Below are positions 18,874-56,923 of a stretch of 64,000 bases of DNA, piece by piece; positions within the stretch are counted from its first letter, which is position 1, and each line of letters begins with the position of its first letter. The stretch is from the human T2T-CHM13v2.0 reference genome, Homo sapiens. A program made the position numbers and the translations under genes. The DNA lies in NCBI RefSeq assembly GCF_009914755.1, contig NC_060928.1; one strand, given 5' to 3'. The notes under the pieces are model-generated. The model was not told where the DNA came from and did no database searches. It worked only from the letters and a program-made list of their open reading frames with translations.

Positions 18874-21800
18874 ATGACAGGATCAAATTCACACATAAGA
18901 ATATTAACTTTAAATGTAAATGACTAAATGCTCCAATTAAACGACACAGACTGGCAAATTGGATGAAGAGTCAAGACCCATCAGTGTGCTGTATTCAGGA
19001 AACCCATCTCACGTGCAGAGACACACATAGGCTCAAAACAAAAGGATAGAGGAAGATCTATTAAGCAAATGGAAAACAAAAAAAGGCAGGGGTTGCAATC
19101 CTAGTCTCTGATAAAACAGACTTTAAACCAACAAAGATCAAAAGAGACAAAGAAGGCCATTACAGAATTGTAAAGGGATCAATTCAACAAGAAGAGCTAA
19201 CTATCCTAAATATATATGCACCCAACACAGGAGCACCCAGATTCATAAAGCAAGTCCTGAGTGACCTACAAAGAGACTTAGACTCCCACACATTAATAAT
19301 GGGAGACTTTAACACCCCACTGTCAACACTAGACAGATCAACGAGACAGAAAGTCAACAAGGATACCCAGGAATTGAACTCAGCTCTGCACCAAGTGGAC
19401 CTAATAGACATCTACAGAACTCTCCACCCCAAATCAACAGAATATACATTTTTTTCAGCACCACACCACACCTATTCCAAAATTGACCACATACTTGGAA
19501 GTAAAGCTCTCCTCAGCAAATGTAAAAGAACAGAAATTATAACAAACTATCTCTCAGACCAAAGTGCAATCAAACTAGAACTCAGGATTAAGAATCTCAC
19601 TCAAAACTGCTCAACTACATGGAAACTGAACAACCTGCTCCTGAATGACTGCTGGGTACATAACGAAATGAAGGCAGAAATAAAGATGTTCTTTGAAACC
19701 AACGAGAACAAAGACACAACATACCAGAATCTCTGGGACACATTCAAAGCGGTGTGTAGAGGGAAATTTATAGCACTAAATGCCCACAAGAGAAAGCAGG
19801 AAAGATTCAAAATTGACACCCTAACATCACAATGAAAAGAACTAGAAAAGCAAGAGCAAACACATTCAAAAGCTAGCAGAAGACAAGAAATAACTAAAAT
19901 CAGAGCAGAACTGAAGGAAATAGAGACACAAAAAACCCTTCAAAAAATTAATGAATCCAGGAGCTGGTTTTTTGAAAGGATGAACAAAATTGATAGACCG
20001 CTAGCAAGACTAATAAGGAAAAAAGAGAGAAGAATCAAATAGACACAATAAAAAATGATAAAGGGGATATCACCACCGATCCCACAGAAATACAAACTAC
20101 CATCAGAGAATACTACAAACACCTCTACGCAAATAAACTAGAAAATCTAGAAGAAATGGATAAATTCCTTGACACATACACTCTCCCAAGACTAAACCAG
20201 GAAGAAGTTGAATCTCTGAATAGACCAATAACAGGATCTGAAATTGTGGCAATAATCAATAGCTTACCAACCAAAAAGAGTCCAGGACCAGATGGATTCA
20301 CAGCCGAACTCTACATAGGTACAAGGAGGAACTGGTACCATTCCTTCTGCAACTATTCCAATCAATAGAAAAAGAGGGAATCCTCCCTAACTCATTTTAT
20401 GAGGCCAGCATCATCCTGATACCAAAGCCTGGCAGAGACACAACCAAAAAAGAGAATTTTAGACCAATATCCTTGATGAACATCCATGCAAAAATCCTCA
20501 ATAAAATACTGGCAAACTGAATCCAGCATCACGTCAAAAAGCTTATCCACCATGATCAAGTGGGCTTCATCCCTGGGATGCAAGGCTGGTTCAATATACG
20601 CAAATCAATAAATGTAATCCAGCATATAAACAGAACCAAAGACAAAAACCACATGATTATCTCAATAGATGCAGAAAAGGCCTTTGACAAAATTCAACAA
20701 CCCTTCATGCTAAAAACTCTCAATAAATTAGGTATTGACAAGACATATCTCAAAATAATAAGAGCTATCTATGACAAACCCACAGCCAATATCATACTGA
20801 ATGGGCAAAAACTGGAAGCATTCCCTTTGAAAACTGGCACAAGACAGGGATGCCCTCTCTCACCACTCCTATTCAACATAGTGCTGGAAGTTCTGGCCAG
20901 GGCAATCAGGCAGGAGAAGGAAATAAAGGGTATTCAATTAGGAAAACAGGAAGTCAAATTGTCCCTGTTTGCAGACAACATGATTGCATATCTAGAAAAC
21001 CCCATTGTCTCAGCCCAAAATCTCGTTAAGCTGATAAGCAATTTCAGCAAAGTCTCAGGATACAAAATCAATGTACAAAAATCACAGGGATTCTTATACA
21101 CCAACAACAGACAAACAGAGAGCCAAATCATGAGTGAACTCCCATTCACAATTGCTTCAAAGAGAATAAAATACCTAGGAATCCAGCTTACAAGGGAAGT
21201 GAAGGACCTCTTCAAGAACTACAAACCACTGCTCAATGAAATAAAAGAGGATACAAACAAATGGAAGAATATTCCATGCTCATTGGTAGGAAGAATCAAT
21301 ATCGTGAAAATGGCCATACTGCCCAACGTAATTTACAGATTCAATGCCATCCCCATCAAGCTACCAATGACTTTCTTCACAGAATTGTAAAAAACTACTT
21401 TAAAGTTCATATGGAACCAAAAAAGAGCCCGCATTGCCAAGTCAATCCTAAGCCAAAAGAACAAAGCTGGAGGCAGCATGCTACCTGACTTCAAACTATA
21501 CTACAAGGCTACAGTAACCAAAATAGCATGGTACTAGTACCAAAACAGAGATACAGATCAATGGAACAGAACAGAGCCCTCAGAAATAACGCTGCATATC
21601 TACAACTATCTGATCTTTGACAAACCTGACCAAAACAAGCAATGGGGAAAGGATTCCCTATTTAATAAATGGTGCTGGGAAAACTGGCTAGCCATATGTA
21701 GAAAGCTGAAACTGGATCCCTTCCTTACACCTTATACAAAAATCAATTCAAGATGGATTAAAGACTATAATGTTAGACCTAAAACCATAAAAACCCTAGA

Positions 21801-22695
21801 AGAAAACCTAGGCAATACCATTCAGGACATAGGCATGGGCAAGGACTTCATGTGTAAAACACCAAAAGCAATGGCAACAAAAGACAAAATTGACAAATGG
21901 GATCTAATTAAACTAAAGAGCTTCTGCACAGCAAAAGAAACTACCATCAGAGTGAACAGGCAACCTACAAAATGGGAGAAAATTTTCGCAACCTACTCAT
22001 CTGACAAAGGGCTAATATCCAGAAGCTACAATGAACTCAAACACATTTACAAGAAAAAAACAAACAACCCCATCAAAAAGTGGGCAAAGGACATGAACAG
22101 ACACTTCTCAAAAGAAGACATTTATGCAGCCAAAAAACACATGAAAAAATGCTCACCATCACTGGCCATCAGAGAAATGCAAATCAAAACCACAATGAGA
22201 TACCATCTCACACCAGTTAGAATGGCAATCATTAAAAAGTCAGGAAACAACAGGTGCTGGAGAGGATGTGGAGAAATAGGAACACTTTTACACTGTTGGT
22301 GGGACTGTAAACTAGTTCAACCATTATGGAAGTCAGTGTGACGATTCCTCAGGGATCTAGAACTAGAAATACCATTTGACCCAGCCATCCCATTACTGGG
22401 TATATACCCAAAGGACTACAAATCATGCTGCTATAAAGACACATGCACACGTATGTTTATTGTGGCATTATTCACAATAGCAAAGACTTGGAACCAACCC
22501 AAATGTCCAACAATGATAGACTGGATTAAGAAAATGTGGCACATATGCACCATGGAATACTATGCAGCCATAAAAAATGATCAGTTCATGTCCTTCGTAG
22601 GGACATGGATGAAACTAGAAATCATCATTCTCAGTAAACTATCGCTAAAACAAAAAACCAAACACTGCATATTCTCACTCATAGGTGGGAACTGA
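18874..22695 (+). pseudogene. L1 ORF2p (EN-RT) with frameshifts and stops
   Basis: Early frameshift (aatgactaaat), multiple stops, and FADD changed to FADN; fragments are visible in the ORF track. Confidence 0.92.
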
Positions 22696-22894
22696 ACAAT
22701 GAGAACACATGGACACAGGAAGGGGAACATTACACTCTGGGGACTGTTGTGGGGTGGGGTGAGGGGGGAGGGATAGCATTGGGAGATATACCTAATGCTA
22801 GATGACGAGTTGATGGGTGCAGCACACCAGCATGGCACATGTATACATATTTAACTAACCTGCACATTGTGCACATGTACCCTAAAACTTAAAG

Positions 22895-55122: not shown

Positions 55123-55621
55123 TCAGTATTACAATAGGTAGAACACTTAACCAGGAGATTTGCAGGTATCTCAAAGGGTAGGCAGAAAAGGGTTTTGTTT
55201 TTTTTTTTTATAGGGAGGAGTGAACAAGGCTAGAAAGAATCAGTATAAGTGGGATAAACAAGAGGGGTGGGATAAAATGGTAAATCAGGGCATGTTCTAC
55301 TCTGAGGTCAGACTAATCTCAGGAGGGACTGATAAGGAGGACTGGCCCAGGCTGGGAATGGATCAACATTCAGGCATCCGGGAAAGATGATAAACTTAAC
55401 CAAAATTTTTCATTAACAAGCATTTTGTTTTAATTCATCACTGGAGACAAAACAGTTCAGCTAACATTTATGATGCGAAGGACGGACATTTGGAGGGTGT
55501 GTTTCTGGCATTAATAGGTAACTAAGGGGACATGTGTGATCCTTTTCTAGTTACGTGGTGAAAGAGGGCTGTTCTTTGCAGTCATTTCTCAGAACACAAA
55601 AGGTTAAGAGTATTTACGTTA

Positions 55622-56923
55622 AGGTGTAAGGAAGGGATTCAGTTTCAGCTTTCTACATATAGCTTCTTACACCTTATACAAAAATTAATTCAAGATGGAT
55701 TAAAGACTTAAATGTTAGACCTAAAACCATAAAAACCCTAGAAGAAAACCTAGGCAATACCATTCAGGACATAGGCATGGGCAAGGACTTCATGTCTAAA
55801 ACACCAAAAGCAATGGCAACAAAAGCCAAAATTGACAAATGGGATCTAATTAAACTCAAGAGCTTCTGCACAGCAAAAGAAACCACCATCACAGTGAACA
55901 GGCAACCTACAGAATGGGAGAAAAATTTTGCAATCTACTCATCTGACAAAGGGCTAATATCCAGAATCTACAAAGAACTCAAACAAACTTACAAGAAATA
56001 AACAAACAACCCCATCAACATGTAGGCGAAGGATATGAACAGACACTTTTCAACAGAAGACATTTATGCAGCCAACAGACACATGAAAAAATGCTCATCC
56101 TCACTGGCCATCAGAGAAATGCAAATCAAAACCACAATGAGGTATCATCTCACACCAGTTAGAATGGCGATCATTAAAAAGTCAGGAAACAACAGGTGCT
56201 GGAGAGGATGTGGAGAAATAGGAACAGTTTTACACTGTTGGTGGGACTGTAAATTAGTTCAACCATTGTGGAAGTCAGTGTGGCGATTCCTCAGGGATCT
56301 AGAACAAGAAATACCATTTGACCCAGCCATGCCATTACTGGGTATATACCCAAAGGAATATAAATCATGCTACTTCAAAGACATATGCACGCGTATGTTT
56401 ATTGCGGCATTACAATAGCAAAGACTTGGAACCTACCCAAATGTCCAACAATGATAGACTGGATTAAGAAAATGTGGCACATATACACCATGGAAACTAT
56501 GCAGCCATAAAAAAGGATGAGTTCATGTCCTTTGTAGGGACACGGGTGAAGCTGGAAACCATCATTCTGAGCAAACTATCGCAAGGACAAAAAACCAAAC
56601 ACCGCATGTTCTCACTCATAGGTGGGAATTGAACAATGAGAACACTTGGACATAGGAAGGGGAACATCACACACCAAGGCCTGTCGTGGGGTTGGTGGCA
56701 GAGCGGGGATAGCATTAGGAGATATACCTAATGTAAATGACAAGTTAATGGGTGCAGCACACCAACATGGCACATGTATACATATGTAACAAACCTGCAC
56801 ATTGTGCACATGTACCCTAGAACTTAAAGTATAATAATATATATATTATTTATATATAAATATAATATATATATAAATATATATATAAATATATATATAA
56901 ATATATATATAAATATATATATA
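55622..56923 (+). mobile_element. 5'-truncated, 5'-inverted L1PA4/5 element (D)
   Basis: Inverted piece 55622-55664, sense body from ~55665, TA-rich tail, 16-bp TSD aagagtatttacgtta. Confidence 0.92.
56830..56923. repeat. (TATATATAAA)-type AT microsatellite derived from the L1 tail
   Basis: Read directly. Confidence 0.9.

What the first reader, a model, noticed from the sequence alone, without database searches (positions are those of the whole stretch)
20480..56030. Four neighbouring co-oriented L1s share private mutations in a mosaic pattern: a local gene-conversion network
Seen: L1s A, B, C and D are independent insertions (different target sites, truncation points and subfamily marks), yet they share variants absent from the consensus as I recall it. 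A+C share atCcatgc (20485/47074), SQAF>SQGF (~21089/47879), gaaTattcc (21270/48063), gactATaatg (~21766/48560) and caaacaCattt. B+C+D share aaactCaagagc (40507/48708/55857). B+C share aacaagccc (~40015/48217) and ttataaCtca (41234/49215). C+D share aaacCaccatc, catcaacATgt and a stop codon. B+D share aaacaaaCttac. Within ~12 bp the ORF track reads [38 protein letters not shown] (consensus ELKQIYKKK), so all four haplotype combinations occur. Inference: a tree cannot produce this, and a shared nonsense change is unlikely to come from active parents. The copies probably exchanged short tracts after insertion, as in concerted evolution. The region would also be a substrate for L1-L1 non-allelic recombination deletions.
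Basis: partly seen in the sequence, partly recalled or inferred. Interest (0 to 1): 0.8.

Follow-up and report, generated by a model that had tools for sequence, protein, structure and literature searches.

The report
Neighbouring L1 copies sharing rare variants
Five old LINE-1 fragments on human chromosome 4 look like a mosaic mainly because they come from three successive L1 subfamilies, but a few very rare changes shared only by neighbours suggest that they also exchanged short stretches of DNA after insertion.

Summary

Against 75 unlinked genome copies, A is transitional Mid-to-Young, C is late Mid, and B1, B2 and D are Old. This explains most of the A+C, B+C+D, B+D and B2+D sharing as ordinary subfamily succession.

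Exact-word counts for the other variants run from 3 to 616 genome-wide. The three sites behind the "four haplotypes" pattern are all recurrent or low-frequency states.

A core remains that chance does not explain:
- TA>AT occurs in only 4 L1 copies, against 8,956 with the common word, all on chr4 121.2-124.8 Mb, and two of them are A and C.
- AG>CA has 3 carriers, two of them B1 and C.
- The stop plus "ACAT" occur together only in C and D.
- A and C share 4 rare events, against about 0.3-0.7 expected.

No flank homology was found, and no long conversion tracts.

Genome-wide, carriers of the same rare variant are 20-40 times enriched as neighbours 5-30 kb apart.

Best reading, with confidence about 0.5: short, old non-allelic gene conversion with C as the hub. 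This mechanism is already documented for Alu.

The parts
17453..22955 (+). L1 copy A, about 5.5 kb, with ORF1 and ORF2. By diagnostic sites it is transitional between the 'Mid' and 'Young' groups, with 34% Mid states.
   Evidence: Self-BLAST. Pfam finds the L1 ORF1 domains in 17703-18866 and RVT_1 in 20521-21390.
39084..40774 (+). L1 fragment B1, of the 'Old' group. It lacks its own 3' end and abuts B2.
40758..41735 (+). L1 3' fragment B2, the oldest of the five at about 90% identity to the reference copies. It overlaps B1 by about 238 bp in L1 coordinates.
   Evidence: B1 and B2 are 84.7% identical over 242 columns.
45616..49716 (+). L1 copy C, of the late 'Mid' group with 88% Mid states. It is the hub of all but one sharing pair. 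It is interrupted at 47536-47845 by 310 bp of non-L1, unmasked DNA that replaces about 110 bp of L1.
55620..56889 (+). L1 3' fragment D, of the 'Old' group, with a 45-bp inverted piece at 55620-55664.
20484..20485 (+). TG>CC in A. The same change is in C at 47073-47074.
   Evidence: The word has 91 copies genome-wide. The five other carriers inspected are all of Old type. CC together with G1003 or with AT occurs only in A and C.
21089..21089 (+). C>G (SQAF>SQGF) in A. The same change is in C at 47879.
   Evidence: 43 words genome-wide, one of them at chr4:120,985,100, 273 kb from C. 0 of 53 reference copies carry it.
21767..21768 (+). TA>AT in A. The same change is in C at 48560-48561. B1 has the half-change (A at 40359).
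   Evidence: 7 words genome-wide, of which 3 are not L1. The 4 L1 carriers are all on chr4 121.23-124.83 Mb, against 8,956 copies with the common word.
40016..40017 (+). AG>CA in B1. The same change is in C at 48218-48219.
   Evidence: Only 3 words genome-wide: B1, C and chr11:91.24 Mb. 0 of 66 reference copies carry it.
48837..48872 (+). In C: C at 48837 (H codon), T at 48850 (stop), and C and T at 48870 and 48872 ('ACAT'). In D: C at 55988 (T codon), T at 55999, and C and T at 56019 and 56021. B1 has C at 40638 and A has C at 22044.
   Evidence: The stop and ACAT occur together only in C and D.
49215..49215 (+). A>C in C. The same change is in B2 at 41234.
   Evidence: 14 words genome-wide. 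1 of 75 reference copies carries it.

Best explanation
The region holds five independently inserted, co-oriented L1PA fragments from three successive stages of the primate L1 lineage. B2, B1 and D are oldest, C is intermediate, and A is a transitional younger copy. Most of the 'mosaic' is the normal nested sharing of states along that succession, plus low-frequency variants that also occur in tens to hundreds of other copies.

On top of this, C shares a few very rare, mostly two-base changes with each neighbour:
- with A: TG>CC, C>G and TA>AT
- with B1: AG>CA
- with B2: A>C
- with D: the stop and ACAT

I read these as traces of short, old, non-allelic gene-conversion events between neighbouring L1s 7-27 kb apart. 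They probably happened when the copies were younger and more alike, and were later overlaid by private mutations.

Shown: the rarity of the variants, their local concentration, and the lack of flank homology.
Inferred: the mechanism, its direction and its timing.
For: - Subfamily succession. Diagnostic-site painting puts A at 34% Mid states, within a continuum of 0-47% among 38 Young copies. C is at 88%, and B1, B2 and D are Old.
- Rarity and locality. TA>AT occurs in 4 L1 copies against 8,956 with the common word, all within 3.6 Mb on chr4, two of them A and C. AG>CA has 3 carriers, two of them B1 and C. The joint haplotypes CC+AT, CC+G1003 and G1003+AT occur only in A and C, and stop+ACAT only in C and D.
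- Control against unlinked copies. A to D share 0.21-0.28 rare events per kb with 75 unlinked copies. A and C share 4 in 2.6 kb, where the most either shares with any unlinked copy is 2. Over all window pairs the count is 10 against 3.3 expected.
- Independent insertions. The copies share no non-repeat flank homology and have different 5' ends. Older L1s in the window lack the variants, except T1188.
- General tendency. With window copies left out, same-variant pairs 5-30 kb apart number 9 against 0.22 expected. For two variants not chosen from this window the count is 11 against 0.52. Cross-variant controls give 1.4-4 times.
- Precedent. Neighbouring Alus are reported to share non-diagnostic mutations by gene conversion within about 10 kb (passages of PMC8230782 and PMC6598467 citing Aleshin and Zhi 2010).
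Against: - No tract signature. Identical runs around the shared sites are no longer than around random matching columns (A-C P 0.58, C-D 0.61, B1-C 0.98).
- The permutation tests are marginal (A-C 0.06 and 0.025, C-D 0.04, uncorrected for 8 pairs).
- Once the shared columns themselves are discounted, local identity is not exceptional.
- Many separate very short tracts would be needed. The stop is shared by C and the copy at chr4:120.98 Mb without ACAT, which lies 20 bp away.
- The two other TA>AT carriers lie 1.05 and 3.6 Mb away, which is far for conversion.
- The same variants (G1003, C1992, C2368) co-occur in or next to each other at other loci. Six elements carry two of them against about 2.5 expected, and chr6:160.60-160.63 Mb is a second such locus. 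This hints at a minor sublineage, that is descent.
- One of two sampled close pairs elsewhere is a plain DNA-level duplicate.
- The copies are now only 93-95% alike, which is poor substrate for recombination.
Confidence: 0.5

Rival explanations
1. Shared descent with local clustering. The rare variants mark minor L1 sublineages, and copies of one sublineage landed near each other through regional or temporal insertion bias. There was no exchange after insertion.
For: - Elements elsewhere carry two of the listed variants. Six were seen against about 2.5 expected.
- chr6:160.60-160.63 Mb and chr7:119.6-122.8 Mb repeat the same variants in neighbouring copies.
- TA>AT carriers lie up to 3.6 Mb apart.
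- Excess same-variant pairs extend to about 1 Mb.
- Same-subfamily retrotransposons are reported to deviate from random placement (abstract of PMC7750997).
Against: - A (34% Mid states) and C (88%) differ at about 27 of 51 Young/Mid diagnostic sites, yet share four rare events. A tree cannot place both on one side branch.
- Each neighbour shares a different subset of C's variants and not the others. L004 has AT but not G1003 or T1188. D has the stop and ACAT but not C2368.
- From recall, not tested here: no local reinsertion bias is known for L1.
Confidence: 0.2
2. Chance homoplasy only. The sites are recurrent hot spots, for example in A-runs, in quasi-repeats such as AAACAAAT>AAACAAAC, or creating the palindrome ACATGT. 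With about 50 rare states per copy, some coincidences among ten pairs are expected.
For: - Every variant recurs elsewhere, with 3 to 616 words.
- D's haplotype recurs at chr11:27.317 Mb.
- There is no tract signal.
- The B1-D sharing (151-copy variant) is an unremarkable coincidence.
Against: - All 4 L1 carriers of TA>AT lie within 3.6 Mb, out of about 8,960 copies.
- 2 of 3 AG>CA carriers lie 8 kb apart.
- The joint haplotypes are unique to neighbours.
- A-C shares 4 events against 0.3-0.7 expected, and no unlinked copy of 75 reaches more than 2.
- The genome-wide neighbour excess is 20-40 times at 5-30 kb.
Confidence: 0.1
3. DNA-level local duplication. The copies are old duplicates of one another, not separate insertions.
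For: - The chr18 pair sampled from the CC list (8 kb apart, inverted) is 96.5% alike with at least 14 shared rare states.
- A published neutral model invokes duplications to explain retrotransposon spacing (abstract of PMC7750997).
Against: - In the window no non-repeat flank matches any other at the relevant offsets.
- The 5' ends differ, the subfamilies differ, and the pairs are only 93-95% alike.
Confidence: 0.03
4. Assembly or polishing artefact that mixes paralogous L1 reads.
For: None from the calls.
Against: - The copies differ by 5-10% and sit in unique flanks, so long reads place them unambiguously (inference).
- The shared states are isolated bases, not blocks.
Confidence: 0.02

Closest known systems
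Non-allelic gene conversion between neighbouring Alu elements (Aleshin and Zhi 2010, known here only through passages of PMC8230782 and PMC6598467)
   Same: Interspersed retrotransposon copies that lie close together share non-diagnostic mutations more often than distant copies, and the effect falls with distance.
   Different: Here the elements are L1 fragments 1-5 kb long, of different subfamilies, and now 93-95% alike. The excess I measured reaches beyond 10 kb, to roughly 0.3-1 Mb, where duplication or lineage clustering may contribute. No tract structure was seen.
Primate L1PA subfamily succession (single evolving lineage; subfamily names such as L1PA5 to L1PA8 are recalled, not assigned by any search)
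   Different: Succession cannot explain rare states shared by a late-Mid copy and a transitional-Young copy but absent from nearly all other copies of both groups.
Random placement followed by sequence duplication as a model of retrotransposon spacing (Riba et al. 2020, PMC7750997, abstract seen)
   Same: Same-family copies are closer together than random placement predicts. One sampled pair (chr18) is such a duplicate.
   Different: The window's copies have no shared flanks and have different truncation points.

Membership tests
LINE-1 (L1PA) retrotransposon copies | ORF1 (L1 RBD, dsRBD and trimerisation domains) and ORF2 reverse transcriptase | tested here: met
   In A, Pfam finds Transposase_22, Tnp_22_dsRBD and Tnp_22_trimer in 17703-18866 and RVT_1 in 20521-21390. 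B1, B2, C and D align to A at 90-95%.
LINE-1 (L1PA) retrotransposon copies | Independent insertions, shown by different 5' truncation points and unrelated flanks | tested here: met
   The copies start at different L1 coordinates, and self-BLAST finds no non-repeat homology at the offsets between copies. Target-site duplications were not looked for.
LINE-1 (L1PA) retrotransposon copies | Assignment to named Dfam/RepeatMasker subfamilies | not testable with these tools
   No Dfam consensus was on hand. I used three empirical groups built from 75 genome copies.
Non-allelic (ectopic) gene conversion between paralogous repeats | Paralogues share derived states that their own lineages lack (phylogenetic discordance) | tested here: met
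   A-C, B1-C, B2-C and C-D share states found in 0-2 of 53-75 reference copies and in 3-91 words genome-wide. The joint haplotypes are unique.
Non-allelic (ectopic) gene conversion between paralogous repeats | Contiguous tracts: shared states lie in stretches of raised identity with clear boundaries | tested here: not met
   Runs around the shared sites are not longer than random. Permutation and window tests are marginal. Power is low if the events are old.
Non-allelic (ectopic) gene conversion between paralogous repeats | Orthologues in other species show the recipient's pre-conversion state | not testable with these tools
   No primate genome other than this assembly can be searched here.
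Non-allelic (ectopic) gene conversion between paralogous repeats | Dependence on proximity | tested here: met
   Same-variant pairs are enriched 41, 9.8, 4.6, 3.3 and 1.5 times in bins from 5 kb to 3 Mb, with window copies left out. For two unascertained variants the values are 21, 4.8, 3.8, 2.0 and 1.4 times. This feature is not specific to conversion.

The most novel reading that the evidence does not exclude
Dispersed L1 copies in the human genome evolve partly in concert. Rare variants spread between copies by ectopic gene conversion, at a rate that falls roughly as one over distance, like chromatin contact frequency, and is still measurable at several hundred kb. Local 'networks' such as this one, hubbed on copy C and reaching copies 0.27, 1.05 and 3.6 Mb away, would then be the rule rather than the exception. 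L1 divergence-based ages and sub-subfamily trees would be biased accordingly.
Probability: 0.2. Interest if true: 0.7.

Novelty: new member of a known kind. Interest (0 to 1): 0.42.

Why it matters
If the residue is real conversion, it is a worked example of interspersed L1 copies of different ages exchanging short patches. That would blur subfamily assignment, age estimates from divergence, and four-gamete or tree-based inference on repeats.

The side result could be tested properly with repeat annotation and ape T2T assemblies. It is that carriers of the same rare L1 variant are 20-40 times enriched as close neighbours genome-wide, with weaker excess out to about 1 Mb. The test would show how much of this comes from conversion, duplication or clustered insertion.

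The specific claim of a 'network proven by four haplotypes' is not sound as stated.

Tried and rejected
- Tract detection. Three approaches gave no robust tracts: sliding 200-column windows ranked against 75 reference copies, a maximal-segment and runs permutation on concordant and discordant sites, and identical-run lengths around the shared sites.
- An apparent 1.4-kb 'C-like' block in A (columns 318-1758). I rejected it because other early-Young copies carry Mid states at the same sites, so it is lineage history.
- Older L1s in the window as common donors. They lack the variants, except T1188.
- A hidden sub-subfamily carrying the A+C haplotype. None of the other CC carriers has AT or G1003. 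T1188 could be compared only for the carriers on chr1 to chr3 (12 by the final list), and none of those has it. L004 has AT but the common states at 1003 and 1188.
- Segmental duplication. I found no flank homology.
- A product-of-loads model for expected sharing. It was poorly calibrated at high loads, so I also give the plain empirical rates.
- A co-fixation-by-linkage model for clustered insertions. I dismissed it on a back-of-envelope argument, not a computation.
- Aleshin and Zhi 2010 is not held.
- Three literature searches listed no genome-wide neighbour analysis for L1. I judged this from the listings only.
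Full report
**What is there**

Self-BLAST with copy A and of the whole window finds these plus-strand L1 copies:
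- A, 17453-22955
- B1, 39084-40774
- B2, 40758-41735
- C, 45616-47535 plus 47846-49716
- D, 55666-56889, with a 45-bp inverted piece at 55620-55664

An older minus-strand L1 lies at 30719-35424. In A, Pfam finds the L1 ORF1 domains and a reverse transcriptase.

They overlap by about 238 bp in L1 coordinates and are only 84.7% alike there. No non-repeat flank of one copy matches another, so these are separate insertions.

**Observation**

All ten quoted motifs are present. The four ORF readings at ELK(Q/H)(I/T)YKK(K/*) are correct.

**Reference copies**

The assembly holding the window could be searched.
- I took the 29 best genome matches to C 48400-49400 and the 29 best to A 21600-22600, each with 1.5-kb flanks.
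- Later I added 7 copies carrying the 'ACAT' word and 13 of D's best matches.
- Rows dropped: the window itself (L001, L031); two places fetched twice (L037 is the same as L029, and L047 the same as L026); and L078, an X-linked twin of L077.
- This left 56 unlinked copies at first and 75 in the end, aligned with A to D.

**Subfamily structure explains most of the list**

Clustering on 152 informative columns gives three groups: 'Young' (38 copies), 'Mid' (25) and 'Old' (12).

At the sites that separate the groups:
- C carries 88% Mid states.
- B1, B2 and D carry Old states.
- A carries 34% Mid states interleaved with Young ones.

The Young group is itself a continuum, with 0-47% Mid states. 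Other early-Young copies carry Mid states at the same sites as A. So A's mosaic is that of a transitional copy on a single evolving lineage, not evidence of exchange.

| Variant | Frequency in the reference copies |
|---|---|
| aaacCaccatc | 15 of 25 Mid |
| caaacaCattt | 10 of 38 Young |
| aaactCaagagc | 10 of 74 |
| B1+D T at column 1935 | 9 of 12 Old |
| B1+D C at column 2080 | 8 of 12 Old |
| B1+C+D A at column 1978 | 11 of 12 Old |
| the four B2+D 3'UTR states | 7-12 of 12 Old |

A+C (younger states), B+C+D and B+D (older states) are the nested sets that a succession predicts.

**None of the rest is private**

These are exact-word counts over the whole genome, both strands:

| Variant | Shared by | Words genome-wide |
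|---|---|---|
| AG>CA | B1+C | 3 |
| TA>AT | A+C | 7 |
| ACAT | C+D | 10 |
| A>C, ttataaCtca | B2+C | 14 |
| C>G, SQGF | A+C | 43 |
| the stop | C+D | 67 |
| TG>CC | A+C | 91 |
| T>C, aaacaaaCttac | B1+D | 151 |
| gaaTattcc | A+C | 616 |

The old minus-strand L1 in the window also carries the gaaTattcc state.

The common word at the TA>AT site occurs 8,956 times.

The 'four haplotypes in 12 bp' rest on three sites. Each occurs in many other copies. D's own combination recurs at chr11:27.317 Mb. The four-gamete argument therefore does not require local exchange.

**What chance does not explain**

1. Three of the seven TA>AT words (chr5, chr9, chr11) are not L1 at all. Only the 17-18 bases match. 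The four L1 carriers are A, C, and two 5'-truncated minus-strand copies at chr4:122.31 and 124.83 Mb. Those two have no flank homology to the window. So all four carriers lie within 3.6 Mb, out of about 8,960 copies.
2. Two of the three AG>CA carriers are B1 and C, 8 kb apart.
3. Cross-matching the lists shows that CC+AT, CC+G1003 and G1003+AT occur together only in A and C. The stop and ACAT occur together only in C and D. G1003 and the stop occur together only in C and in a copy at chr4:120.984-120.985 Mb, 273 kb away.
4. Against the 75 unlinked copies, A to D share 0.21-0.28 'rare events' per kb. A rare event is a shared state with at most two other carriers, with adjacent columns merged. 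The most A or C shares with any unlinked copy is 2. A and C share 4 in 2,634 columns. A load-scaled expectation gives 0.32 for A-C (P 0.0003) and 3.3 for all ten window pairs, against 10 observed (P 0.002). That model is poorly calibrated at high loads, and one event (column 1710) is counted in three pairs.

Every sharing pair but B1-D involves C.

**What speaks against conversion**

- Identical runs around the shared sites are no longer than around random matching columns. The P values are 0.58 for A-C, 0.61 for C-D, 0.98 for B1-C, 0.74 for B1-D and 0.13 for B2-C.
- The permutation tests on the order of concordant and discordant sites are marginal and uncorrected. A-C gives 0.06 and 0.025, and C-D gives 0.04. 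B2-D gives 0.02, but for a block of Old-diagnostic 3'UTR sites.
- In 200-column windows, A and C are each other's nearest sequence only where the two-base shared variants themselves lie.
- Power is low if the events are old. Most of the 131 A-C mismatches are private mutations, and these would have re-covered any tract.
- Two of the TA>AT carriers lie 1.05 and 3.6 Mb away.
- G1003, C1992 and C2368 occur in pairs in single elements elsewhere: chr2:160.98, chrX:115.88, chr6:160.607 and chr7:122.755 Mb. They also occur in neighbouring elements at chr6:160.60-160.63 Mb. Together with two more elements that also carry the stop, six elements hold two of the four listed variants, against about 2.5 expected. 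This hints at a minor sublineage.

**A general tendency**

For this test I left out the window's own copies, the amylase duplications (chr1:103.4-103.8 Mb) and chrY.

| Distance bin | Same-variant pairs seen, window-derived lists | Uniform expectation | Seen, two unascertained variants | Uniform expectation |
|---|---|---|---|---|
| 5-30 kb | 9 | 0.22 | 11 | 0.52 |
| 30-100 kb | 6 | 0.61 | 7 | 1.46 |
| 100-300 kb | 8 | 1.75 | 16 | 4.17 |
| 0.3-1 Mb | 20 | 6.1 | 29 | 14.6 |
| 1-3 Mb | 27 | 17.5 | 59 | 41.7 |

Controls for the window-derived lists:
- Pairs between different lists give ratios of 1.4, 3.3, 0.5, 1.1 and 1.4.
- The first 100 copies with the common word give 1.25, 1.34, 1.08, 0.91 and 0.74.

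To remove ascertainment through this window, I listed transversions carried by 2-3 unlinked reference copies. I meant to search the first four, and I searched two of them, the first and the third. They have 300 and 279 words genome-wide, and only the first 100 places of each are listed. The cross-list ratios for these two are 4.0, 2.9, 1.3, 0.9 and 1.1.

So close L1 neighbours share low-frequency variants far more often than chance. The excess fades with distance.

I sampled two close pairs from the CC list:
- The chr18 pair, 8 kb apart and inverted, is a plain duplicate. It is 96.5% alike with at least 14 shared rare states.
- The chr7 pair, 15 kb apart, is 87% alike with 4-5 shared rare states, so it is mosaic like the window.

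Duplication therefore contributes to the general signal but is excluded in the window.

**Literature**

- Passages of PMC8230782 and PMC6598467 report that neighbouring Alus share non-diagnostic mutations by non-allelic conversion within about 10 kb. Both cite Aleshin and Zhi 2010, which is not held.
- The abstract of PMC7750997 reports non-random spacing of same-family retrotransposons, which random placement plus duplications can reproduce.
- Three searches listed no L1-specific neighbour analysis. I checked the listings only.

**Verdict**

About three quarters of the listed sharings are subfamily succession or low-frequency variants.

A residue of very rare changes shared by C with A, B1, B2 and D is local and non-random. 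It is best explained by short, old non-allelic gene conversion (confidence about 0.5). Lineage clustering is the main rival (0.2).

Ape and monkey orthologues would settle it.

Noticed in passing
They are joined head to tail with about 238 bp of overlap in L1 coordinates, and B1 lacks its own 3' end. This looks like a deletion that fused two neighbouring co-oriented L1s by non-homologous joining.
   Followed up: partly
window 47536-47845: 310 bp of non-L1 DNA, not masked as a repeat, sit inside C and replace about 110 bp of L1. Their origin is unknown.
   Followed up: no
G000 chr4:120,984,131-120,985,116 (minus strand), outside the window: An L1 273 kb from C carries both the SQGF change and the stop codon. 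Genome-wide, only C shares this combination. It carries neither TA>AT nor ACAT.
   Followed up: partly
L028 (chr4:122.31 Mb) and L004 (chr4:124.83 Mb): These are the only other L1 copies in the genome with the TA>AT word. They lie 1.05 and 3.6 Mb from C, on the minus strand, with different 5' ends and no flank homology to the window.
   Followed up: yes
G000 chr6:160,607,039-160,628,189 and chr7:119.6-122.8 Mb: chr6:160.60-160.63 Mb is a second locus where neighbouring L1s carry the same rare variants as this window (C1992+C2368 in one element, C2368 in the next, G1003 20 kb on). On chr7, three of the 14 C2368 carriers lie within 3.2 Mb.
   Followed up: no
genome-wide lists: Carriers of the same low-frequency L1 variant are 20-40 times enriched as neighbours 5-30 kb apart. 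The excess is weaker out to about 1 Mb, falling roughly as one over distance. Cross-variant pairs and L1 copies in general are not enriched in this way.
   Followed up: partly
L092/L093 (chr18:54.026/54.034 Mb) and L044/L045 (chr14:33.703/33.709 Mb): These are inverted L1 pairs 6-8 kb apart that share many rare states. The chr18 pair is 96.5% alike. The chr14 pair has 6 shared rare events, among the highest of all reference pairs. They are probably local inverted duplications.
   Followed up: partly
window 17703-18866: Copy A keeps a 387-codon stop-free frame covering the L1 ORF1 domains, although the element is old and 5'-truncated.
   Followed up: no
window 36093-36764: The RefSeq-annotated enhancer lies between the old minus-strand L1 and B. 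I did not examine it.
   Followed up: no
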